Positions 34,937-42,659 of a stretch of DNA of 64,000 nucleotides are shown one piece after another. Numbering within the stretch: the stretch's first letter is position 1; every line of letters starts with the position of its first letter. The notes beneath the pieces were generated by a model. It made no database searches. It saw nothing but the letters and a program-made list of their open reading frames with translations, and was not told the DNA's origin. The stretch comes from Enterobacteria phage CHB7, in the sequence record MK562504.1; one strand, 5' to 3'. The translations under genes and the position numbers were made by a program.

Positions 34937-35012
34937 TTGGAGCGTCGAAAGGGAGTTGAACCCTCATAATCCTGTTTTGCAGACAGGTACATAGCCATTT
35001 CTGTCATCGACG
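34937..35012 (-). tRNA. tRNA-Cys (GCA)
   Basis: Hand-folded cloverleaf; loop CUGCAAA; encoded CCA; U73. Confidence 0.7.
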
Positions 35013-35019
35013 CATTAAA

Positions 35020-35113
35020 TTGGAGGAAGATACCAGACTTGAACTGGTACGCCGATTTCTCGGTTACTGACAGTTTAGCAAACTGTTCCCTTACCTTTTA
35101 GGGTTAATCTTCC
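35020..35113 (-). tRNA. tRNA-Ser (GCU), long variable arm
   Basis: Anticodon stem ACAGT/ACTGT, loop TTGCTAA; variable-arm hairpin CCGA-GAAA-TCGG. Confidence 0.7.
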
Positions 35114-35115
35114 AA

Positions 35116-35850
35116 TTATTTGTTCAAGGCATCCTTCATTTCTGGAGTTGCGATTGAATCAATCACACCAGTTTTACAAGCATCATCAAACCAGTCTGGT
35201 AAGACACCTGCAAGGAAACCATTAATATTAGTTTTCAAGTAATCAGCAATTAACGCTGCTTCATCTGCAATCATCTTAGTGACCTCATTAGCATATGCAG
35301 TAATCTTAGCAATGCCCTGATTAATCGCTGTAACGGCTTGTGAGGCTAAGGAAGAGATAGTGTCTAGTCCTTTATCAATTGCATCTTTTAAGTCGCTTAG
35401 AACGCCATTCACAGTGTCTATGGAGGTGTTAATCAAATCCATAGCTTGTTGACCGTACTCTGTAGCTACTCCCATGATTCCACTAAACGGTGTACAACCA
35501 ACTTGCTCTCCTGCTGCACCCATAACGTTAGAGTAACCTTTAGCTACCTGCATACGTGATGAGAACTCATCTACAGATTTCTGACCGTATTGAGTCAGTG
35601 TGTTAGTTGTCGTTGTAGTGCTTCCAAGGCTCGTTGAGAAGCTACTTAACAAGGCTGTAGTCAAACCAGCAGCAATAAGTTTATCTTTTACTGTAGGGTC
35701 TGATACCGAGCTAATAGAGCTTACTAATGAAGTAGAAGCGGCAATTGTGCCACCAAGGATTGCTGCACCAGTAATAAGAGGGTTAGAAAACCCGTTACCG
35801 GATTTCAGGAGATTAAAAATCTCTTTACCTTGTTCTGTCATCTCTTTCAT
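35116..35850 (-). CDS. hypothetical protein
   Basis: 244 aa Ser/Thr/Ala-rich protein inside the tRNA region. Confidence 0.5.
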   Translation of the reverse strand: MKEMTEQGKEIFNLLKSGNGFSNPLITGAAILGGTIAASTSLVSSISSVSDPTVKDKLIAAGLTTALLSSFSTSLGSTTTTTNTLTQYGQKSVDEFSSRMQVAKGYSNVMGAAGEQVGCTPFSGIMGVATEYGQQAMDLINTSIDTVNGVLSDLKDAIDKGLDTISSLASQAVTAINQGIAKITAYANEVTKMIADEAALIADYLKTNINGFLAGVLPDWFDDACKTGVIDSIATPEMKDALNK

Positions 35851-35867
35851 TAAGCACCTTTTGAAAT

Positions 35868-35944
35868 TGGCGGGTTAGTGGGATTTGAACCCTCTTCTCA
35901 TGTTTTTCAGACATGCGCTTTAACCATATAAGCTACTTAACCCA
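35868..35944 (-). tRNA. tRNA-Phe (GAA)
   Basis: Loop CUGAAAA; 3' end ambiguous by about 2 nt. Confidence 0.6.
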
Positions 35945-35951
35945 TTAAATT

Positions 35952-36028
35952 TGGGGTGACCTACGGGAATCGAACCCGTATAGACCATGTTCACAGCATG
36001 GGTCATTATCCATTTATGATAAGGCCAC
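35952..36028 (-). tRNA. tRNA-His (GUG)
   Basis: Loop CUGUGAA; C73; perfect T stem. Confidence 0.65.
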
Positions 36029-36059
36029 ATGTAAGGACTCTCGTAAGAACCCTTAGAAG

Positions 36060-36135
36060 TGGCAGCAGCGTAAGGATTTGAACCTTAATCTTTCAGCTTC
36101 AGAGGCTGGAGCATTGCCAGTTATGCTACACTGCT
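36060..36135 (-). tRNA. tRNA-Gln (CUG)
   Basis: Loop CUCUGAA; G73. Confidence 0.55.
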
Positions 36136-36142
36136 ATTAATT

Positions 36143-36221
36143 TGGTACTCCATATCGGATTCGAACCGATACATAACACAGATTTTAAGTCTGGCCTCTC
36201 TGCCAATTGGAGTAATGGAGC
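36143..36221 (-). tRNA. tRNA with Leu anticodon UAA, standard length (short variable region)
   Basis: Loop CUUAAAA; A73; about 79 nt, no long variable arm. Confidence 0.5.
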
Positions 36222-36223
36222 AT

Positions 36224-36299
36224 TGGCGGGGGATGTTGGAATTGAACCAACTTCTTCGATTTCAAAGACCGAGGTTTTAACCTTGTAAACTAATCCCCT
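36224..36299 (-). tRNA. tRNA-Gln (UUG)
   Basis: Stem TCGGT/ATCGA, loop CUUUGAA; G73. Confidence 0.6.
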
Positions 36300-36307
36300 T
36301 TAAATCT

Positions 36308-36865
36308 TTACTTTCTTAGTGGATGAATAAAGAATGCCAACATAATTCTTTCCCTTGAAAATGCTCTTTCTTCTGGGACAACACTTTTAAGTTTCCAACC
36401 AACATAAATTCTCCAGTAAAATTGTTTACCAAAGATTTTAATTGACGGGATAAAAGCGAATAAACCCCAAGCATTACTGTTCCACATCAGGAGATAACCT
36501 GTCTGATTATCTTCAGGGTTAGAACTTACGTTGATATTACCTTTCCACTTAGTAACATCTTTTACATCTCTTCCTAATACATGGTAAGAGAAGTTATAAG
36601 CTTTGTTTCTCCAGAGCCATCCAACTCTCTGCATATAAACACCGAGCTTACCAATCTTTCGAATCTTAGCCCATCGTTCAACGTGACCTTTGTCACCATC
36701 AATTGGGTTGTCATAAGTTTCCATCCATCTGAATCCAAAAGGTAAGTGACCTTTCTTCTCACTGTAGAATGGAACCACAAATGGTGCTAAGATTACTGCT
36801 AAGATTGCTGCAAATGGCTCTAGCAAAGCTAGGAAAATCCATGAAGCATACTTCAAATATCTCAT
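36308..36865 (-). CDS. membrane protein, hypothetical
   Basis: ATG 36863-36865 with AGAGG RBS; N-terminal hydrophobic segment; track ORF extends upstream from TTG into tRNA-Arg. Confidence 0.5.
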   Translation of the reverse strand: MRYLKYASWIFLALLEPFAAILAVILAPFVVPFYSEKKGHLPFGFRWMETYDNPIDGDKGHVERWAKIRKIGKLGVYMQRVGWLWRNKAYNFSYHVLGRDVKDVTKWKGNINVSSNPEDNQTGYLLMWNSNAWGLFAFIPSIKIFGKQFYWRIYVGWKLKSVVPEERAFSRERIMLAFFIHPLRK

Positions 36866-36885
36866 TTTAAATAGCCTCTTTAAAT

Positions 36886-36962
36886 TGGTGCAGAATAAGG
36901 GATTCGAACCCCTAACAAACAACTTCGTAGGTTGCTGCTCTATCCGTTTGAACTAATTCTGC
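36886..36962 (-). tRNA. tRNA-Arg (ACG)
   Basis: Loop CUACGAA; perfect 7 bp acceptor GCAGAAT/ATTCTGC. Confidence 0.65.
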
Positions 36963-37124
36963 AATGTTCTTTTGAGATTCCTGTCTAGCTCTCTTCTTAT
37001 CTCTTCTGAGAAAGCGTCTACGATGGTCTGTACGCCATTTGTAGTAATCTTCCTCACCAGCGTGAGAAGCACAGCAACCACAACTTGCAATTTCAACTTT
37101 ACCGTGTCTACCATAAGGCTTCAT
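36912..37124 (-). CDS. small basic Cys-containing ORF overlapping tRNA-Arg (doubtful)
   Basis: ATG with AGGAG RBS right after the preceding tRNA; last 51 nt overlap tRNA-Arg. Confidence 0.3.
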   Translation of the reverse strand: MKPYGRHGKVEIASCGCCASHAGEEDYYKWRTDHRRRFLRRDKKRARQESQKNIAELVQTDRAATYEVVC

Positions 37125-37140
37125 AGGAATCTCCTAAAAT

Positions 37141-37218
37141 TGGTGTTCCAAGACGGATTCGAACCGTCACTAATACAAGGTTTGAGCTTGCATCCTCTGC
37201 CAATTGGGATACTGGAAC
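37141..37218 (-). tRNA. tRNA with Leu anticodon CAA, standard length (short variable region)
   Basis: Stem GCAAG/CTTGT, loop CUCAAAC; A73; D-arm similar to the UAA tRNA. Confidence 0.5.
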
Positions 37219-37220
37219 AT

Positions 37221-37295
37221 TGGTACTCGCTGAAGGACTTGAACCTTCTTCACCAACTTGTAAGGATGGGGCTTTACCATATAAACTAAGCGAGT
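37221..37295 (-). tRNA. tRNA-Val (UAC)
   Basis: Loop CUUACAA; A73. Confidence 0.6.
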
Positions 37296-37391
37296 ATGAA
37301 AAGAGGTCTGAAGTTGTGCCGCTAACTCAACTCCGTGGAATTTGTTACGGTCTTCAGTTGACTCAAGCGGTCTTTCACTCGACCTCTGAAA

Positions 37392-37468
37392 TGGTGCTGC
37401 TCACAGGACTCGAACCTGCATTTCCATCCTTACAAGGGATGTGTAATAGCCAATTATACGAAAGCAGC
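37392..37468 (-). tRNA. tRNA-Thr (UGU)
   Basis: Stem CATCC/GGATG, loop CUUGUAA; A73. Confidence 0.65.
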
Positions 37469-37474
37469 ATTGTT

Positions 37475-37549
37475 TGGAGCATCCAGAGGGAATCGAACCC
37501 TCAACCTCAGTTTGGAAGACTGTAATTTTCCCGTTTAAACTATGGATGC
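37475..37549 (-). tRNA. tRNA-Gly (UCC)
   Basis: Loop CUUCCAA; U73; perfect T stem. Confidence 0.65.
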
Positions 37550-37555
37550 ACTAAT

Positions 37556-37631
37556 TGGTGGAGAAGCAGGGAATTGAACCCTGTACTTAAGTTTGCAAAA
37601 CTTATGTTTTAACCATGTAAACTACATCCCC
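37556..37631 (-). tRNA. tRNA-Ala (UGC)
   Basis: Stem TAAGT/ACTTA, loop UUUGCAA; G3-U70 wobble pair; A73. Confidence 0.7.
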
Positions 37632-37637
37632 AATGTT

Positions 37638-37713
37638 TGGTACAGGTGGAGGGAATTGAACCCATCGTCTTACTGATTAAGAGTCAGCCGCATAACCATT
37701 TTGCTACACCTGC
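37638..37713 (-). tRNA. tRNA-Lys (CUU)
   Basis: Loop CUCUUAA; A73. Confidence 0.55.
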
Positions 37714-37720
37714 ATTAATT

Positions 37721-37798
37721 TGGTAGGAGACAAGGGATTCGAACCCTCAAACACCAACTTCTAAGGATGGTAGGTTTACCAATTACCGTCAATCTCCC
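37721..37798 (-). tRNA. tRNA with Leu anticodon UAG, standard length (short variable region)
   Basis: Loop CUUAGAA; A73; about 78 nt. Confidence 0.45.
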
Positions 37799-37866
37799 AT
37801 TAAATCTTTGTAGAGAACTGCTAAGACGCCAAAGCAACAATGGTATCAAATGCCTTAACAATTCTC

Positions 37867-37887
37867 TAAAAAGACCTAACTGGTCTT
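37867..37887 (-). terminator. hairpin downstream of nuclease gene (weak terminator)
   Basis: AAAGACC-loop-GGTCTTT followed by U-rich tail on the minus strand. Confidence 0.35.
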
Positions 37888-38026
37888 TGCATAGTCTTGT
37901 TTAATCCGGTGACTAGAACCTTTGGAGAGCTTGATATTATCTCTTCTCCGTGACACCTACTAGGTGCTTTGTTGTGCGTGTACGACAATACACGAGGGAA
38001 ACCGAACGCTGTACCAGAGCGTGGGC

Positions 38027-38368
38027 TTAAATCTTTAAGCTAAGTTCAGTCTTGGACTTGACATCTTTAGCTTTGTAGATGACGACTTTATCAAGTGGTT
38101 CAATGTAAACAGCTAAGTAATCAACTTGAGAGTTATCAAAATTCATTATTCTATTTTCATTCTTGTTAGAACGAACTCTTTTCAGTTGCACTCTCCAAAG
38201 TTCACCTCTTTTGACTGATGTTGATTTTACCTCAACAGTCTCAATCAAACCATCTTTGTGAACTAGAAAGTCATACTTTGCATTATCTGTAGCTGGTGAA
38301 TACACTTCATAACCTCTTTTGAGGAAAGCTAATTGTGTAGCAATTTCACCTACTGAACCTTTCTTCAT
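38027..38368 (-). CDS. PD-(D/E)XK nuclease-like protein embedded in tRNA cluster
   Basis: ATG 38366-38368 with AAGGTGGTGA RBS; YDFLVHKDGLIETVEVKS resembles a D...ExK nuclease core. Confidence 0.5.
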   Translation of the reverse strand: MKKGSVGEIATQLAFLKRGYEVYSPATDNAKYDFLVHKDGLIETVEVKSTSVKRGELWRVQLKRVRSNKNENRIMNFDNSQVDYLAVYIEPLDKVVIYKAKDVKSKTELSLKI

Positions 38369-38390
38369 AATCACCACCTTAAAATTATTT

Positions 38391-38477
38391 TGGCAGAGAG
38401 TGCAGGAGTTGAACCCGTACCGTTTCCAGCAGCACCAGTTTTCAAGGCTGGTTGGTCTCCGTTGACCGCCACTCTCT
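38391..38477 (-). tRNA. tRNA-Ser (UGA), long variable arm
   Basis: Loop CUUGAAA; perfect acceptor AGAGAGT/ACTCTCT; G73; 87 nt. Confidence 0.65.
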
Positions 38478-38490
38478 CCGAAACAATCTT

Positions 38491-38573
38491 TGGCATGGGA
38501 CGGAGGAATCGAACCCCTTTGAGTAAGTTTTGGAGGCTTACGCACATGCCTTAGTGTCTTAACATCGTCCCAT
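38491..38573 (-). tRNA. tRNA-Trp (CCA), atypical 83 nt with enlarged D region
   Basis: Anticodon hairpin GTAAG-(C)CUCCAAA(A)-CTTAC; perfect acceptor; G73; extra nt between acceptor and D stem. Confidence 0.45.
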
Positions 38574-38715
38574 ATATTATTTCGAAGCTTACCGTATTAT
38601 CACAACACTGTAAAGCCCCTTCTCAGATTATTTACATGTTCTGGAAAACATGAGATACAGACCACCTCCCTACAGGAAGACCCGCTTAGGTCGTCTAAGT
38701 AATCTGCTAACTATT

Positions 38716-38743
38716 TGGTAGCCAAGGTAGGAGTCGAACCTAC
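38716..38743 (-). pseudogene. tRNA 3' fragment (CCA + acceptor + T arm only)
   Basis: TGG-T-AGCCAAG followed by T arm GTAGG-AGTCGAA-CCTAC; no matching 5' acceptor strand found within 100 nt. Confidence 0.4.
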
Positions 38744-38842
38744 TTACTCTCGAAGGTAGCTAACCTTCAGTAACTTTCCGACTTTCGTACATCTGTTAAC
38801 ATGTATTCAGATGGCTTACTAGTGTTGTCTTGACCATTAAAC

Positions 38843-38919
38843 TGGCACACCCTACAGGACTCGAACCTGTAACTCAGTGCTTAGAAGGCACTTGCTCTAT
38901 CCAATTGAACTAAGGGTGC
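38843..38919 (-). tRNA. tRNA-Arg (UCU)
   Basis: Loop CUUCUAA; G73. Confidence 0.65.
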
Positions 38920-39170
38920 ATTCTTATCTTTAAAGGCTCTCTTAGAAAACCCTTAAAGATGCCCACATTATTAATCATACCGTGGGCGAGTACGCCAAAT
39001 TCTTTGATGAGGGGTTGGAAGACCTCACTGGTGTTTAGCCTATTAAGCTACTGCCAGAAAAACATTATCGTTTGCATTTATTTTAGTTTGCAAAAATAGA
39101 CGCTACGCTAACGAAAACTAAGGTTACTATAAAGTGGTCACATCTGAATGTCAACAACTTTATCGAATTT

Positions 39171-39246
39171 GGTAGTGGTAGCAGGAATCGAACCTGCGAT
39201 GTTCGGTTATCAGCCGAGTGTTATGACCGTCTTAACTATACCACCA
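39171..39246 (-). tRNA. tRNA-Ile (GAU)
   Basis: Loop CUGAUAA; A73. Confidence 0.6.
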
Positions 39247-39248
39247 TT

Positions 39249-39325
39249 GGAGGTTCAGATGGGATTCGAACCCACATTCATAGGGCTTATGAAACCCTTG
39301 CATTACCTTATCTGCGACTGAACCA
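39249..39325 (-). tRNA. tRNA with CAU anticodon (Met or Ile2)
   Basis: Stem AGGGT/GCCCT, loop UUCAUAA; U73. Confidence 0.55.
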
Positions 39326-39403
39326 TAATAAGTTGCCCTTTGGAGAAGAACTATTGAGTGGGTGTTTCCAGCCGCGCAGGTGTTCTTCAGTTAAGGGCTA
39401 ATT

Positions 39404-39479
39404 TGGTAGGAGTGGAGGGATTCGAACCCTTCGCCTGTCAGATTAAAAGTCTGCCGCATCACCATTCTGCTACACTCCC
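39404..39479 (-). tRNA. tRNA-Lys (UUU)
   Basis: Loop CUUUUAA; A73. Confidence 0.6.
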
Positions 39480-39735
39480 ATTGAATCATCTTTGCAGTAA
39501 CCTACGCAAACCTTGCTAAAGGGTTTGTAGAGTCATTTCCTATTAAGCTAATCTAGAATCATGCTAAGGAAATTCATCGGCACTCATGGGACGACATTTA
39601 GCTCCATAAGTCACTGCAAAGAGGATTACCAGACCGTTGTTTATCTTAAGTGCTCCCATTACACCAACACGCCGTAACGTGTGAAGGAATCGAACCTTCG
39701 CCTTTTCTTTACCAGAGAAATAGATTGTTTTATAC

Positions 39736-39765
39736 TTGCTGTAAACGGTCTTCTGTAAATTTGTT
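39736..39765. repeat. inter-tRNA spacer repeat (TGCTGTAAACGGTCTTCTG family), copy 1
   Basis: Same about 20 nt word recurs at 40281-40306 and 40440-40466; CCAGACC word recurs near 39639, 39787, 40238, 40395. Confidence 0.6.
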
Positions 39766-39906
39766 GAGCCAGACCAAGTTTTAAATTTTTCAAAATTAAA
39801 TTGGCTTGAAATTTTTTAAGTTGGCTTGCTGAATTTGGTCTTCTGCTCCTTTAAAGAACACTCGTAAGAACTCTTTAAGGGAGGGGCTAAAAAGCCCTCT
39901 CAAATT

Positions 39907-39984
39907 TGGCGGTTACGAAGGGATTCGAACCCTCATCATCTCCCGTGACAGGGGAGTATTTTAACCAGATTAAACTACATAACC
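39907..39984 (-). tRNA. tRNA-Asp (GUC)
   Basis: Perfect stem CTCCC/GGGAG, loop CUGUCAC; G73. Confidence 0.7.
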
Positions 39985-39990
39985 TTTATT

Positions 39991-40078
39991 TGGTGCGCCG
40001 TGAAGGAGTCGAACCTACCGAGTCATAATGACAAGTGATTTACAGTCACCACCGCTTCCATCTACGGGATAACGACGC
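39991..40078 (-). tRNA. tRNA-Tyr (GUA), long variable arm
   Basis: Loop CUGUAAA; 88 nt; A73. Confidence 0.6.
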
Positions 40079-40148
40079 ATTTTATTCCATTCAGGCTAAG
40101 GACTTGCACCTTACAAATCGGTGAGCATTACGCTTCTCTCCCAAATCT

Positions 40149-40225
40149 TGGCGGTGAGTTAGGGATTCGAACCCTATGCCATTCGGTTAACAGCCGACCG
40201 CACATGCCTTATGTGCTTCCTCACC
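40149..40225 (-). tRNA. tRNA-Asn (GUU)
   Basis: Loop CUGUUAA; G73; perfect T stem. Confidence 0.65.
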
Positions 40226-40306
40226 ATGTTTAGTATTGCCAGACCGTATCTTTTCATTTTTCCTATAAAAATTTTTGAGATTGCTGTAAACGGTCTTCTG
40301 CAAATT

Positions 40307-40383
40307 TGGAGGCGGGTGCAGGAGTCGAACCTGCCGATACCATGCTAATGAGACATGTGAGACGCCCTTTCTCTATACCCGCG
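40307..40383 (-). tRNA. tRNA with CAU anticodon, unpaired 1-72 (C-C)
   Basis: Loop CUCAUUA; first acceptor pair is a C-C mismatch; U73. Confidence 0.5.
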
Positions 40384-40466
40384 AACTTTTATGACCAGAC
40401 CAAACTTTTAAGTTTTCTATGCGCGAAAAGTAAAGTTGTTTGCTGTACTTGGTCTTCTGTCAAATT

Positions 40467-40541
40467 TGGAGTCGTAGACGGGATTCGAACCCGCGAGCAA
40501 CTGATTGAAGGTCAGGTGGCTAACCATTTGCCTTCTACGAC
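40467..40541 (-). tRNA. tRNA-Glu (UUC), tentative
   Basis: Stem CTGA/TCAG, loop CCUUCAA (C at position 33 is unusual); perfect acceptor. Confidence 0.45.
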
Positions 40542-40548
40542 ATTAATT

Positions 40549-40625
40549 TGGTCTCCGTTGAAGGGATTGAACCTTCGACCTCACCGCCCCAAACGGCGCA
40601 CTCTACCAAACTGAGCTAAACGGAG
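40549..40625 (-). tRNA. tRNA-Pro (UGG)
   Basis: Loop UUUGGGG; C1-G72; A73; perfect acceptor. Confidence 0.7.
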
Positions 40626-40744
40626 ATAATCTTTTCAAACTCTATGTAACCACTTTAACATTATTTTTTAGTGGTTGTCAAGAACTTTTTTAAAATATTT
40701 TTCAGTATCTTAGAAAAACTCTCGATTTCGTTTCTATGTAGAAC

Positions 40745-40773
40745 ATATTAAAGGGTATCGAGCAGATTGTCAA
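40745..40773 (-). promoter_or_regulatory. sigma70 consensus-like promoter (TTGACA-17-TAATAT) reading into the tRNA cluster
   Basis: Minus-sense TTGACA (40768-40773) and TAATAT (40745-40750), 17 bp spacer inside a GGGTAT/ATACCC palindrome. Confidence 0.6.
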
Positions 40774-40791
40774 TACCCTTTTTAAAACTTT

Positions 40792-42207
40792 TTACCAGAT
40801 GTAACGGTCAATCATTACTGCTTTGAGCATTACGCTGATTGGGTCAAACTTCTCACCACCAAGCAGAGCTTTTAAAGTGGCTGGAGAGAACCCTGATACC
40901 ATTGCTACCCCATTATCCTTAACAGACACTTCGCAAGTACCATTACGGTTTGCTAAGTACCAGAATACCAGTTGTGGCATTTCGTATCCAGCTTTTTCAT
41001 ACTTACTGCGAATTGCTTCGAAGTTTGTATGGCCATCTGCACCGTCAACCTGATTGAACTCCATATCAGAGAAGATAATAAGCTTACTTGGCATTGCTGC
41101 CTGAGTCAAGCCATTTCTTACACCGATTTCAAGAATACGGTCAAATGCTGCTTGCAGGTTTGTTGAACCATACTCAACCTTGTTCATTACCTGACGCATA
41201 CGAGTCTGCAAATCACCACTCAGAGTAATAAAGTGAGGTCTTGTGGAGTAAACCATTAACTCATCTTTAAAGCACCCTGTATTGCGTTCTGAGACGTATA
41301 ACGCCAAAGACAGGCCAATATCAAGAGCAGTTACAGAACCAAATGTCTGCCAAGTCATAGACGCTGATACATCTGACATACACAGAATGTTTTCACCTTC
41401 TGCCATCCAGTTTGGTAATGCTTTCCACTGTTCGTTTGCAACACTTGCTTTACCATGATTAACGGACTTCAGAATATCGTATGGGTACACAGCACCAGCA
41501 TTAATCTTGGCCTCACCTTTGGATAAAGCTTCAACGTAAGCTGCATAACGTTCACCGTCTTTCTTGCTGAACAGCTTTTGATAACGTGCAGCAGCCAGTG
41601 AAGGAATCTTGCTGTAGTCAATCTCACCAAAGTTATTTGTAGAGATTTTCTGTTCAACGGTATCAGACAAAGCTGATAACAGTGTACGGTATTCTTTCTC
41701 ACTCAGGCTTGCAAACTTACAGAAACGTTTTACAAACTGTTTGTGTCGTGGTTTTACTCGTGGTAACCACTTAGCCGCTAAACCTGCTGTATCAGGGTCT
41801 AACAAGGCTGCTTCTAAATGCTTGAAAGCATCTGTCTCATAACGAGTACCTACGAAGATTTTGAAGTCATCGAAACGACCTAATTCAGAAATCTTATCCA
41901 TGATACGAAGAACTTGGAAAGAATCCAGAATGTTATCTTCGATTGCTTGTAAGAGGACAGTTCGGAAAGCTTTACGCTCACCCATACCTTCTCGTACATC
42001 TCGCATATGCAGTAAAATACGAACTGCTACATCAACATCCTCACGCAAAGCTTTGTAGAACAAGTCTGGGAGAATCTCTACATTGCCACGGCTTGAGCCA
42101 GCAGCTTTATAGAAGTCTACCAAGGCAGACATTGATGATGTATGGTTAACAGCACCATTTTCAGTTCGCCCTGCATGGAGGTGCGAATGTTTAAATAAAT
42201 CGCTCAT
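40792..42207 (-). CDS. vWA-domain protein with MIDAS motif (DUF2828/TROVE-like?)
   Basis: 471 aa; DxSxS MIDAS motif in LCMSDVSASM; N-terminal RTENGAV segment; purine-rich RBS. Confidence 0.6.
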   Translation of the reverse strand: MSDLFKHSHLHAGRTENGAVNHTSSMSALVDFYKAAGSSRGNVEILPDLFYKALREDVDVAVRILLHMRDVREGMGERKAFRTVLLQAIEDNILDSFQVLRIMDKISELGRFDDFKIFVGTRYETDAFKHLEAALLDPDTAGLAAKWLPRVKPRHKQFVKRFCKFASLSEKEYRTLLSALSDTVEQKISTNNFGEIDYSKIPSLAAARYQKLFSKKDGERYAAYVEALSKGEAKINAGAVYPYDILKSVNHGKASVANEQWKALPNWMAEGENILCMSDVSASMTWQTFGSVTALDIGLSLALYVSERNTGCFKDELMVYSTRPHFITLSGDLQTRMRQVMNKVEYGSTNLQAAFDRILEIGVRNGLTQAAMPSKLIIFSDMEFNQVDGADGHTNFEAIRSKYEKAGYEMPQLVFWYLANRNGTCEVSVKDNGVAMVSGFSPATLKALLGGEKFDPISVMLKAVMIDRYIW

Positions 42208-42287
42208 ATTTTACTCTCTTCTCTCATTTATTGTTTGATGTGACAGACTTTAGAACATCTTCGTAGAGCCTGTCAACATCTTTTAAA

Positions 42288-42659
42288 TTATTTTTTCAGA
42301 GCCGCTACAGCAGAGAACGTTGGTTTGTTCTCTTGTGGTTTATCTCCACCCTTCTCACCCTCTTTCTTGGTGTCTGCTGCAATGGCTTTCATCTCACCTG
42401 CTGAGTGAGTCATGATAGTTTTTCCAGCTTCCATCATTGACTTCAGGTTTACGTCATCAGCCGTCAAACCAAACTCTGCAAGTTTTACAGGGTCTCTGGT
42501 AACAATCGCCTCAAACAACTTTGCAGCATACTCTGCTGAGTTGTCAATGGTTAATTGGGCTTTTACAAGAGAACTTTTGTTACGTGAGCCTTTTGGTCTT
42601 CCAGATGGGTTACCGGACTGGCCTTTCTTGAATTGGCCTTTGTTTGTACGTTTTGTCAT
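42288..42659 (-). CDS. DNA-binding protein with GRPKG motif (possible small terminase subunit)
   Basis: N-terminal KGQSGNPSGRPKGSRNK basic AT-hook-like segment. Confidence 0.45.
   Translation of the reverse strand: MTKRTNKGQFKKGQSGNPSGRPKGSRNKSSLVKAQLTIDNSAEYAAKLFEAIVTRDPVKLAEFGLTADDVNLKSMMEAGKTIMTHSAGEMKAIAADTKKEGEKGGDKPQENKPTFSAVAALKK

What the first reader, a model, noticed from the sequence alone, without database searches (positions are those of the whole stretch)
40745..42207. vWA/MIDAS protein encoded directly upstream of the tRNA cluster and its consensus promoter
The 471 aa protein has a DxSxS MIDAS motif and an N-terminal region reminiscent of DUF2828/TROVE-type proteins. Ro60/Rsr-type TROVE+vWA proteins bind tRNA-like Y RNAs that are often encoded next to tRNA clusters in phages. 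A near-perfect TTGACA-17-TAATAT promoter immediately downstream drives the tRNA array, which also contains tRNA-like fragments. The pairing of an RNA-binding-type protein with tRNA-like RNAs is worth testing, but the family assignment is from memory of motifs only.
Basis: inference. Interest (0 to 1): 0.5.

Follow-up and report, generated by a model that had tools for sequence, protein, structure and literature searches.

The report
Phage Ro60-like protein and Y-like RNAs
The gene encodes a ring-shaped Ro60-type RNA-binding protein of a Felix-O1-like phage, and the tRNA gene array just downstream contains four previously unannotated small RNAs (one a rearranged tRNA look-alike) that are its probable partners, a pairing that recurs next to this protein family in many unrelated phages.

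Summary

Those RNAs were never located. I found four modules on the gene's strand inside the array, all sharing a bulged closing stem and the single-stranded motif UUACAGCAA. One (39762..39621) encloses a circularly permuted tRNA-like domain, as in YrlA. Three are short.

Covariance models show the same RNAs beside DUF2828 homologues in diverse phages, with strong covariation and always on the gene's strand. The short form has the signature of Dictyostelium Class I RNAs.

Binding and function are inferred, not shown. Verdict: a new variant of the known Ro60-Y RNA kind.

The parts
40792..42207 (-). Gene for a 471-aa Ro60-like protein: an N-terminal helical (HEAT-like) ring, aa ~1-265 (DUF2828), and a C-terminal vWA domain with a complete MIDAS, aa ~274-455 (DUF7788).
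   Evidence: It is 89% identical over 471/471 aa to Bas63 gp130.
42247..42276 (-). Promoter-like site TTGACA-18-TAAAGT, 40 nt upstream of the protein gene.
   Evidence: This is a consensus match only; its conservation was not examined.
40745..40781 (-). Promoter-like site P1 (TTGACA-17-TAATAT, 40773..40745), overlapping a 12-bp inverted repeat (40781..40750) directly after the stop codon.
   Evidence: Hexamers invariant in 23 distinct relatives while the spacer varies. Function not tested. The repeat never varies, so it gives no covariation evidence.
40652..40681 (-). Promoter-like site P2 (TTGACA-18-TAAAGT with a TG extension), 26 nt upstream of tRNA-Pro, followed by the same TACATAGA as P1.
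40387..40466 (-). Short Y-like RNA module a, between tRNA-Glu and tRNA-Met. Closing stem GACA/AGA/AGACCAA...UUGGUCU/G/GUC, then single-stranded GUACAGCAA and an A/U-rich loop.
   Evidence: R1 37.9 bits, R2 37.6 bits. Weak Rfam Dicty_Class_I_RNA match.
40231..40307 (-). Short Y-like RNA module b, between tRNA-Met and tRNA-Asn. Same stem, with UUUACAGCAA.
   Evidence: (fold z = -2.5). R1 57.2 bits, R2 41.7 bits. Rfam Dicty_Class_I_RNA 26.6 bits at 40240-40295.
39761..39852 (-). Short Y-like RNA module c. Outer stem GAGC/GCUC, AGA/G internal loop, inner stem AGACCAA/UUGGUCU, and AUUCAGCAA.
   Evidence: R2 30.2 bits with filters off.
39621..39762 (-). YrlA-like RNA module d. It has the same closing stem and UUUACAGCAA as a-c, but these enclose a circularly permuted tRNA-like domain. 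In order: V-arm, T-arm GAAGGUUCGAUUCCUUC, a 7-bp acceptor-like hairpin, U-G, and D-arm GUGU-AAUGGGA-GCAC.
   Evidence: 97% of cells paired against 43-52% with partners slid; three compensatory pairs in the acceptor-like stem. R1 166 bits. R2, built without any Felixounavirus sequence, scores 109.2 bits, E = 2.4e-22, the top hit in 662 kb.
34938..40625 (-). tRNA array (25 tRNA genes) in which the four RNA modules are embedded. Flanking tRNA processing would release the modules.
   Evidence: Release by tRNA processing is inferred.

Best explanation
The gene encodes a compact Ro60-type protein: a helical ring closed by a vWA/MIDAS domain. The adjacent tRNA operon encodes its probable RNA partners, one YrlA-like RNA with a permuted tRNA-like domain and three short stem RNAs.

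Proposed mechanism:
1. The array is transcribed from the conserved promoter-like sites P1 and P2.
2. RNase P and the 3' trimming enzymes that mature the flanking tRNAs release the ~65-140-nt modules.
3. The protein recognises what all four modules and their counterparts in other phages share: the bulged stem joining the 5' and 3' ends (5'-AAG.../...CUG-3') and the adjacent single-stranded UUACAGCAA.
4. By analogy with Rsr-YrlA-PNPase in bacteria and phiRo60-Yrl-PNPase in Thermus phage phiLo, the RNP gates or tethers a host exoribonuclease, or another RNA-handling enzyme. The tRNA-like domain of module d would serve as the handle. This would help keep phage tRNAs and transcripts functional during infection and against host defences.

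What is shown here: the fold, the RNA family and its covariation, and the linkage of gene, RNAs and tRNAs across phages.
What is shown by others: the orthologue counters the ppl defence.
What is inferred: binding, processing and the downstream effector.
For: Protein:
- Pfam DUF2828 + DUF7788.
- AlphaFold2 pLDDT 90.1, pTM 0.89.
- The 12 best Foldseek PDB hits are all Ro60.
- MIDAS residues invariant.

RNAs in the window:
- The 19-nt motif AGAAGACCNNNTNCAGCAA occurs 4 times, all within 1.2 kb downstream of the gene on its strand, against 0 expected.
- Modules a-c are present in all 27 Felixounavirus-type loci examined, and d is intact in 26 of 27.
- RNAalifold independently finds my structure for d.

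Across phages:
- A model built from d alone finds full-length relatives next to homologues only 38-51% identical. These include the loci where Rfam's own YrlA model gives sub-threshold hits: Klebsiella phage FBKp34, 39.6 bits, and Mycobacterium phage MiniLon, 37.7 bits.
- On 22 such hits (21 distinct rows; two are tandem-tRNA false positives), 93% of cells pair against 42-47% with partners slid. 30 of 33 pairs show compensatory changes, and 0 of 500 shuffles reach the observed score.
- 23 of 86 diverse loci have a hit >=45 bits that does not overlap a tRNA; 43 of the 86 loci retain a long or short candidate after the final curation (45 before it).
- All 114 hits at E<0.1 lie on the gene's strand.
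- The nearest hit is within 400 nt of the gene in 34 of 43 loci.
- 29 of 29 short modules have a perfect 6-bp stem, with 25 different stem sequences. A control with the 3' part shuffled gives a mean of 7.3 and a maximum of 13.
- 37 of 86 loci have tRNAs within 3 kb: 177 tRNAs on the same strand, none opposite.

Precedent:
- YrlA RNAs lie within 4 kb of Ro60, on the same strand, in >250 bacteria and phages (PMC4201824).
- phiLo Ro60 binds two Yrl RNAs and attenuates PNPase (PMC12135203).
- Bas63 gp130 is Ro60-like and counters ppl (PMC11482910).
Against: - There are no binding, expression or processing data for this phage.
- Pfam TROVE is not matched.
- Rfam YrlA gives no hit in the window even at E<=10 on a 341-nt stretch.
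- The CGAA / GNCGAAN0-1G motif used to define YrlA and Yrl RNAs is not conserved here. GGCGAAGG precedes the T-arm, but it reads GGAGAAGG in several relatives.
- Bas63 gp130 expressed alone, from a plasmid or from the T7 genome, restores plaquing on the ppl strain. The protein therefore has at least one activity that needs no phage RNA.
- 43 of 86 diverse loci show no Y-like RNA within 3 kb at the sensitivity used, and long forms occur only where tRNAs are also nearby.
- One relative (L026) has lost the 3' half of module d through recombination with a tRNA T-arm.
- The alignments used for covariation were fitted to the model, which inflates pairing somewhat.
Confidence: 0.78

Rival explanations
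1. The protein is an anti-defence factor that acts on its own, through its vWA/MIDAS surface or by binding host nucleic acid. On this view the neighbouring RNAs are not its ligands, and the clustering reflects only that early or accessory genes and tRNA genes share one genomic region.
Against: The RNAs track the gene and not merely tRNAs. 11 loci with no tRNA within 3 kb still carry a short module. The nearest module lies within 150 nt of the gene in 20 of 43 loci, always on the same strand. The whole-protein fold is Ro60, an RNA-binding ring, and not an isolated vWA domain. In every Ro60 system studied, partner RNAs are encoded beside the gene. The two views are compatible, since Ro60 also works free of Y RNA.
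Confidence: 0.14
2. The modules are not functional RNAs in their own right. Instead they would be spacer or processing hairpins of the tRNA precursor, or decaying tRNA remnants. Module d would be a scrambled pseudo-tRNA left by recombination in the array.
For: They sit exactly between tRNA genes. Arrays of this phage group do recombine: L026 shows a T-arm fusion, and the tRNA-Tyr-like sequence at 39996-40076 scores below threshold. Thermodynamic z-scores for d (-0.6), a (-1.4) and c (+1.0) are unremarkable.
Against: A decaying remnant would not keep a 7-bp acceptor-like stem through three different stem sequences. It would also not keep canonical T- and D-loops and an invariant single-stranded 9-mer across phages of proteobacteria, Firmicutes and actinobacteria. 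A processing hairpin would not need an invariant unpaired CAGCAA. In many loci the modules occur without flanking tRNAs.
Confidence: 0.05
3. The RNAs are the active agents: decoys or sponges for host tRNA-directed enzymes such as anticodon nucleases, modification enzymes or PNPase. The protein would only stabilise or chaperone them.
For: Module d keeps the tRNA elbow (T-loop UUCGAUU; D-loop with GG), which tRNA-recognising enzymes read. YrlA RNAs are substrates of tRNA-modifying enzymes. Phage tRNA arrays are thought to counter tRNA-targeting defences (references 60-61 of that paper).
Against: The three short modules lack any tRNA-like part, yet they are the most widespread form. The protein alone has a phenotype. 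This is a variant of the main explanation and not an exclusive alternative.
Confidence: 0.03

Closest known systems
Bas63 (Escherichia phage JohannRWettstein, MZ501086) gp130
   Same: Orthologue: 89% identity over all 471 aa, with the same position between a DUF5681 gene and tRNA-Pro. It has been reported as structurally Ro60-like and as a counter of the ppl defence. The authors speculated that some neighbouring 'tRNAs' are Y RNAs.
   Different: The RNAs were not identified there. In Bas63 the YrlA-like RNA (record 82770-82916; 125.8 bits with R2) lies under two antisense 'hypothetical protein' CDSs, bas63_0137 and bas63_0138, so it is annotated as protein-coding on the wrong strand.
Bacterial Ro60 (Rsr) with YrlA/YrlB, e.g. 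the Salmonella rsr-yrlBA-rtcBA operon; Deinococcus Rsr-Y RNA-PNPase
   Same: A ring plus vWA/MIDAS protein. RNAs are encoded within a few kb on the same strand. There is one long RNA with a T-arm / acceptor-like stem / D-arm module and one or more short RNAs, and the ends are joined by a stem.
   Different: The protein is ~60 aa shorter and does not match Pfam TROVE. The RNAs fail Rfam YrlA. They carry UUACAGCAA instead of GNCGAAN0-1G, often have an extra V-arm, and are embedded in a tRNA operon rather than placed beside RNA-repair genes. The Listeria phage homologue, however, does sit 1.3 kb from an RtcB gene.
Thermus phage phiLo phiRo60 with Yrl1/Yrl2 (PDB 9kop, 9l5y)
   Different: phiRo60 is deposited as a TROVE-domain protein (9l5y_B molecule name). 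Its RNAs lie upstream, were picked by their CGAA motif and have no tRNA-like domain. Sequence identity to the window protein is 13-15%.
Dictyostelium Class I RNAs (Rfam RF01414)
   Same: A short covarying stem joins the ends, and the conserved motif (consensus CUUACAGCAAU) lies directly 3' of the 5' stem strand. The RNAs start AAG and end CUG(U), have an A/U-rich variable loop and are ~60 nt long. RF01414 is the only non-tRNA Rfam family that hits these modules in more than one locus: the window, L002 and L004.
   Different: All scores are below Rfam's gathering score (26.6 against 41.5 bits). The spacing between the conserved G and the motif differs by one nucleotide. Class I RNAs are eukaryotic, made from DUSE promoters and reported as unique to Dictyostelia. 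Their known direct binder is an RRM protein. Whether dictyostelids have a DUF2828 protein could not be tested here.
Mycobacteriophage 'Ro-like RNA binding protein' (e.g. MiniLon gp57)
   Same: It has the same Pfam architecture, DUF2828 + DUF7788, and 34% identity over the full length. A YrlA-like RNA lies about 95 nt (R2 match; ~140 nt for the Rfam YrlA match) downstream on the same strand (Rfam 37.7 bits, R2 84.8 bits).
   Different: There is a single RNA and only one tRNA 1.2 kb upstream, and no short modules were detected.

Membership tests
Pfam DUF2828 / DUF7788 (PIRSF 'vWA, UCP015417'-type proteins) | Match to PF11443 and PF25043 above their gathering scores | tested here: met
   101.4 bits (cut-off 29) and 143.8 bits (cut-off 27.1). 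PHROG 850 at 2e-177.
Ro60 / TROVE proteins | Match to the Pfam TROVE domain (PF05731) | tested here: not met
   Not listed at E<=1 for this protein or for four distant homologues. No PDB sequence match at E<=10 for the single protein; the family profile gives only a chance-level match to ribosomal protein S21 (E 0.18) and none to Ro60.
Ro60 / TROVE proteins | Architecture: an alpha-helical repeat ring followed by a vWA domain, superposable as a whole on solved Ro60 | tested here: met
Ro60 / TROVE proteins | Complete MIDAS motif (DxSxS...T...D) in the vWA domain | tested here: met
   D279, S281, S283, T349 and D381 are invariant in 41 homologues.
Ro60 / TROVE proteins | Binds Y RNA on the ring surface and single-stranded RNA ends in the central hole | not testable with these tools
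   Needs EMSA, CLIP or a structure.
YrlA (Rfam RF02553; Chen et al. 2014) | Encoded within 4 kb of the Ro60 gene on the same strand | tested here: met
   Module d starts 1030 nt downstream of the stop codon on the - strand.
YrlA (Rfam RF02553; Chen et al. 2014) | tRNA-like domain in permuted order: T-arm, acceptor-like stem-loop, D-arm, closed by a stem that joins the RNA ends | tested here: met
   The T-loop is UUCGAUU and the D-loop AAUGGGA, preceded by U-G. The 7-bp acceptor-like stem has three compensatory pairs.
YrlA (Rfam RF02553; Chen et al. 2014) | Score at or above Rfam's gathering score (69 bits) | tested here: not met
   No YrlA hit at E<=10 on window 39560-39900. Related RNAs in L002 and L001 reach 39.6 and 37.7 bits.
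YrlA (Rfam RF02553; Chen et al. 2014) | Conserved GNCGAAN0-1G near the 5' end (putative Ro60 site) | tested here: not met
   The conserved element here is UUACAGCAA. GGCGAAGG before the T-arm reads GGAGAAGG in four of the 12 aligned relatives and GAGAGAAGG in two more.
Dictyostelium Class I RNA (Rfam RF01414) | ~6-bp covarying stem joining the ends, plus a conserved 11-nt motif next to the 5' stem strand | tested here: met
   Rfam consensus GaUcuC-CUUACAGCAAU...GagAuC-UG, compared with the phage logo wAGr..U.yuUACAGCAAa. 29 of 29 stems are perfect, with 25 distinct sequences.
Dictyostelium Class I RNA (Rfam RF01414) | Score at or above Rfam's gathering score (41.5 bits) | tested here: not met
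   Best scores are 26.6 bits (window b), 29.6 (L004) and 25.2 (L002).
Dictyostelium Class I RNA (Rfam RF01414) | Conserved ends: AAG at the start and CUGU at the 3' end | tested here: inconclusive
   All four window modules have AAG and end CUGG. Of 29 short modules, 24 end CUG, 10 of them CUGU. The true RNA ends are unknown.

The most novel reading that the evidence does not exclude
The short phage RNAs and the Dictyostelium Class I RNAs may be one RNA family: the cognate 'Y RNAs' of DUF2828-type Ro60 paralogues. That protein family is also present in giant viruses of protists and in plants. If so, the abundant Class I RNAs would work as partners of a Ro60-like ring protein. These RNAs have been reported as unique to Dictyostelia and have had no known mechanism for 20 years. 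One candidate partner is the uncharacterised pull-down protein DDB_G0281243. Phages would then carry the same RNP module inside their tRNA operons.
Probability: 0.3. Interest if true: 0.9.

Novelty: new variant of a known kind. Interest (0 to 1): 0.62.

Why it matters
Ro60-Y RNA particles are a conserved RNA-surveillance device, still poorly understood, found from bacteria to humans. Here the partner RNAs of a widespread phage Ro60 subfamily are pinned down to the nucleotide. This subfamily has more than 2,700 database homologues and occurs in 709 phage records, including Felix O1-like, Listeria, Staphylococcus, Enterococcus, Campylobacter, Vibrio and mycobacterial phages.

This makes three things directly testable:
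- how an experimentally validated anti-defence protein (Bas63 gp130) works;
- why the gene sits in phage tRNA clusters;
- what the conserved UUACAGCAA element does.

The work also corrects annotation, because in Bas63 the RNAs are annotated as antisense ORFs. Finally, it offers an unexpected lead on the function of Dictyostelium Class I RNAs.

Tried and rejected
- Sequence searches against PDB chains, with the single protein and with a 41-sequence profile, gave no Ro60 match. NCBIfam gave nothing meaningful.
- Rfam gave no Y_RNA or YrlA hit in the window at E<=1 over 10 kb, nor at E<=10 over 341 nt. The window RNA is not a member of Rfam YrlA as currently built.
- An Rfam 'tmRNA_permuted' hit at 39043-39228 starts inside tRNA-Ile. 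I treated it as an artefact of a tRNA 3' half plus D-arm-like sequence downstream, and did not pursue it.
- I tested whether T4's unexplained stable RNAs rnaC and rnaD, which also lie in a tRNA cluster, belong to the family. They do not. R2 hits only tandem tRNAs there (up to 42.6 bits) and a T-arm piece of rnaC (13.5 bits). This shows that tandem tRNAs are the model's false-positive class. I therefore counted only hits >=45 bits that do not overlap ARAGORN tRNAs.
- I tried to test whether Dictyostelium encodes a DUF2828 protein. The AlphaFold-database fold library was unavailable. DDB_G0281243 occurs in only one held paper, with no domain information. Avesson 2011 is not held.
- The supplements of Chen 2014 and of the PhageMaP preprint are not held. 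I could therefore not check which phages were in Chen's list, or whether knock-outs of bas63_0137 and bas63_0138 have a ppl phenotype.
- The inverted repeat over P1 was considered as a terminator of the protein gene. It has no U-tract and never varies, so there is no evidence either way.
Full report
**1. The observation.** Window 40792..42207 (- strand) is a 471-aa ORF. DVSAS lies at residues 279-283. In an alignment of 41 homologues down to 41% identity, D279, S281, S283, T349 and D381 are invariant, so the MIDAS motif is complete.

Downstream on the same strand lie 24 ARAGORN tRNAs between 34938 and 40625, plus a tRNA-Glu at 40470-40541 that only Rfam detects.

Promoter-like matches are no more frequent than chance in this A+T-rich region (17 found, 17.5 expected). 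What supports this site is that both hexamers and a downstream TACATAGA are invariant in 23 distinct relatives while the spacer between them varies. A second site of the same design lies at 40681..40652, just before tRNA-Pro, and a third at 42276..42247 precedes the protein gene.

**2. Where the window comes from.** The 3 kb around the gene is 96-98% identical to Salmonella phage PC79-13 and to Escherichia phages mistaenkt, phiSUSP1 and SUSP2. It is 80-90% identical to about 245 Felixounavirus records. RefSeq annotates the orthologues as 'RNA-binding protein', and others as 'vWFA protein' or 'DUF2828 domain-containing protein'.

**3. The protein.** Pfam gives DUF7788, the vWA part (6.2e-42), and DUF2828 (6.5e-29). 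TROVE is not matched at E<=1. PHROG 850, 'RNA-binding protein', matches end to end. Sequence searches of the PDB find no Ro60 match.

An AlphaFold2 model built on the 41-sequence alignment is confident: pLDDT 90.1, pTM 0.89, and no segment below 50.
- With Foldseek, the 12 best PDB matches are all Ro60: Thermus phage phiLo, Xenopus, human and Deinococcus Rsr. E-values run from 4e-8 to 1.5e-5 with full-length alignments. Proteins that share only the vWA domain begin at E = 4e-3.

The protein is therefore a compact Ro60-type ring plus vWA, and a member of Pfam DUF2828 rather than TROVE.

Against predicted viral structures, the same fold appears in other phages and in giant viruses of protists: Pithovirus LCPAC304 (TM 0.87), Marseillevirus, CroV, ChoanoV1 and Bodo saltans virus. 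Phage proteins annotated as TROVE or Ro-like match more weakly.

**4. What was already known.** The PhageMaP preprint (PMC11482910) reports several things about Bas63 gp130. Deleting it makes the phage sensitive to the ppl defence. The protein alone, from a plasmid or inserted into T7, rescues T7 on ppl. It resembles Ro60 structurally. [quoted passage not shown]

Bas63 gp130 is 89% identical to the window protein over all 471 residues and sits in the same place.

Other precedents:
- Chen et al. 2014 found YrlA RNAs within 4 kb of TROVE-annotated Ro60 genes in 254 bacteria and 22 phages.
- phiLo Ro60 binds two adjacent Yrl RNAs and attenuates host PNPase.
- Iyer et al. note TROVE proteins in jumbo phages as an RNA-repair platform with a tRNA-like partner.

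**5. The RNAs in the window.** Reading the gaps of the array on the - strand, after a repeat search, showed four copies of one design. The copies are a (40466..40387), b (40307..40231), c (39852..39761) and d (39762..39621). Each has three elements:
- a 4-bp outer helix;
- an AGA/G internal loop;
- a 7-8-bp inner helix (AGACCR.../...YGGUCU), followed at once on the 5' side by single-stranded (U)UWCAGCAA.

The 19-nt core AGAAGACCNNNTNCAGCAA occurs four times in 64 kb, all here, against an expectation of 0.

In a, b and c the loop is 30-50 nt of A/U-rich sequence. In d it holds a complete tRNA-like domain in permuted order:
- a 5-bp arm with a 7-nt loop;
- AGGCG;
- a T-arm, GAAGG-UUCGAUU-CCUUC;
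- a 7-bp acceptor-like hairpin;
- U-G;
- a D-arm, GUGU-AAUGGGA-GCAC.

This is the YrlA plan. RNAfold reproduces it as the minimum-energy structure.

**6. Conservation in close relatives.** In 26 Felixounavirus-type loci from IMG/VR, modules a-c are always present and d is intact in all but one. The exception is L026, where d is fused to a tRNA T-arm.

Twelve distinct versions of d give 97% paired cells, against 43-52% when partners are slid. The acceptor-like stem occurs as three different sequences that all pair, giving three pairs with double changes. RNAalifold independently predicts the same structure.

**7. The family beyond Felixounaviruses.** Homologues of the protein occur in 709 phage records. 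These include phages of Mycobacterium ('Ro-like RNA binding protein'), Listeria, Staphylococcus, Enterococcus, Bacillus, Campylobacter, Vibrio, Aeromonas, Klebsiella, Pseudomonas and Ralstonia. Annotated neighbourhoods show the gene inside or beside tRNA clusters on the same strand in Klebsiella FBKp34, Pseudomonas Astolliot, Ralstonia RSP15, Enterococcus EF5, Bacillus Nate and Campylobacter NCTC12673.

Across 86 diverse loci (11 isolates and 75 metagenomic), 37 have at least one tRNA within 3 kb: 177 tRNAs on the gene's strand and none opposite.

Rfam's own YrlA model gives sub-threshold hits directly downstream of the gene in Mycobacterium phage MiniLon (37.7 bits) and Klebsiella phage FBKp34 (39.6 bits, full length, between the gene and its tRNA array).

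A covariance model built only from module d (R1) finds those same two RNAs and many more. On 22 matches from non-Felixounavirus loci (21 distinct rows; two are tandem-tRNA false positives):
- 93% of cells pair, against 42-47% with partners slid;
- 30 of 33 pairs show compensatory changes;
- none of 500 shuffles reaches the observed score.

The caveat is that this alignment was fitted to the model.

A second model, built only from 18 non-Felixounavirus matches (R2), gives its best score in 662 kb to window module d: 109.2 bits, E = 2.4e-22. It also finds a, b and, with filters off, c.

After excluding matches that overlap tRNAs:
- 23 of 86 loci have a full-length RNA at >=45 bits;
- 43 of the 86 loci retain some long or short candidate after the final curation (45 before it);
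- all 114 matches at E<0.1 are on the gene's strand;
- the nearest match lies within 400 nt of the gene in 34 of 43 loci.

Eleven loci without any nearby tRNA still have a short module, so the RNA-gene link does not depend on tRNA arrays. Long forms, however, occur only where tRNAs are also present.

**8. The short form and Dictyostelium.** I examined 29 short modules, from 23 diverse phage loci plus the window. All contain CAGCA, and their logo is wAGr..U.yuUACAGCAAa. All 29 have a perfect 6-bp stem between the 5' strand next to the motif and the 3' end, using 25 different stem sequences. A control with the 3' part shuffled gives a mean of 7.3 and a maximum of 13. Twenty-four end in CUG, ten of them CUGU.

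The only non-tRNA Rfam family that hits these modules in more than one locus is Dicty_Class_I_RNA. It hits window b and a, two modules in L002 and two in L004, at 16.6-29.6 bits, always below the gathering score of 41.5. Its consensus is GaUcuC-CUUACAGCAAU...GagAuC-UG.

Kjellin et al. 2021 describe Class I RNAs as follows:
- 42-65 nt long;
- a 6-bp covarying stem joining the ends;
- a conserved 11-nt motif next to the 5' strand;
- ends AAG and CUGU;
- a variable loop;
- unknown mechanism;
- 'unique to dictyostelid social amoebas'.

The resemblance is close: only the spacing between the conserved G and the motif differs, by one nucleotide. I could not test whether dictyostelids encode a DUF2828 protein. 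I therefore report this as a lead and not as a finding.

**9. Mechanism.**
- Shown here: a Ro60-type fold, a structured RNA family with two forms, and their tight, strand-specific linkage to the gene and to tRNA genes across distant phages.
- Shown by others: the orthologue counters ppl and can do so without phage RNAs, and a phage Ro60 binds its neighbouring Y-like RNAs and modulates PNPase.
- Inferred: the array transcript is cut by tRNA-maturation enzymes, releasing the modules. The ring binds the shared stem/UUACAGCAA element. The RNP then tethers or gates a host RNA enzyme, with the tRNA-like domain of d as the handle.

The rival explanations are listed with their tests: a protein that acts alone, spacers or pseudo-tRNAs, and RNA decoys. 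None accounts as well for covariation together with linkage.

**10. Verdict.** The protein family and the idea were already known. The specific RNAs, their breadth across phages, their distinct recognition motif and the Class I resemblance appear to be new: no held paper pairs YrlA or Y RNA with Felixounaviruses apart from the PhageMaP speculation. I file it as a new variant of the Ro60-Y RNA kind. It works like YrlA/YrlB, but it is not a member of Rfam YrlA or of Pfam TROVE as these are currently defined.

Noticed in passing
L113 22749-23023 (Bas63 record 82748-83022): Two small antisense 'hypothetical protein' CDSs, bas63_0137 and bas63_0138, lie over the YrlA-like RNA (R2 125.8 bits at L113 22771-22917). 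They are probably misannotations of an RNA gene on the other strand.
   Followed up: partly
window 39480-39625 (- strand): About 140 nt between module d and tRNA-Lys fold into a very stable structure: a 12-bp closing stem CUUUGCAGUGAC/GUUACUGCAAAG with inner hairpins (alifold -42.7 kcal/mol). It is present in only 6 of 27 related loci, with a few compensatory changes. No family is assigned.
   Followed up: partly
window 38920-39169 (- strand): This 250-nt gap after tRNA-Ile holds the best promoter match of the region (TTGACA-17-TATAGT, 11/12, 39154..39126). It also contains D-arm-like sequence (GUAGCUUAAUAGGCU). Rfam gives weak permuted-tmRNA and alpha-tmRNA matches that start inside tRNA-Ile.
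   Followed up: no
window 38478-38842 (- strand): Two tRNA 3'-half-like elements (T-arm plus acceptor strand plus CCA) that ARAGORN does not call as tRNAs...GUAGGUUCGACUCCUACCUUGGCUACCA and ...GGGGUUCGAUUCCUCCGUCCCAUGCCA. They may be degenerate or interrupted tRNAs.
   Followed up: no
window 40470-40541 (- strand): tRNA-Glu(UUC) is found by Rfam (53.7 bits) but missed by ARAGORN. Read by eye, its anticodon loop is CCUUCAA, with C instead of the near-universal U at position 33.
   Followed up: no
window 39996-40076 (- strand): A tRNA-Tyr(GUA)-like sequence scores only 22.8 bits, below Rfam's threshold. It is annotated tRNA-Tyr in Bas63 and 'tRNA-Pseudo-GTA' in PC79-13, so it may be decaying in this lineage.
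   Followed up: no
window 38027-38368 (- strand): A 113-aa PD-(D/E)XK endonuclease (PF11645, 3e-17) is inserted in the tRNA array, probably a mobile or homing-type gene. The gene upstream of the Ro60-like gene (42288-42659) is DUF5681.
   Followed up: partly
L006 928-1479 (Listeria phage LMTA-57): A ROOL RNA match (88.5 bits, just under the gathering score of 99.1) and an unannotated tRNA lie about 1-1.7 kb upstream of the DUF2828 homologue. An RtcB RNA ligase gene lies 1.3 kb downstream. This echoes the Salmonella rsr-yrlBA-rtcBA arrangement.
   Followed up: no
L026 5457-5600 (SP116-like Salmonella phage contig): Module d is truncated. Its T-arm is fused to the 3' part of a tRNA, apparently by recombination between T-arms, so the YrlA-like RNA can be lost in nature.
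   Followed up: partly
window, whole: The octamer TWCAGCAA occurs 23 times in the window against 8.4 expected (0 of 100 shuffles reach this count). Only four copies are in the RNA modules. The rest lie scattered across the window on both strands and were not examined.
   Followed up: no
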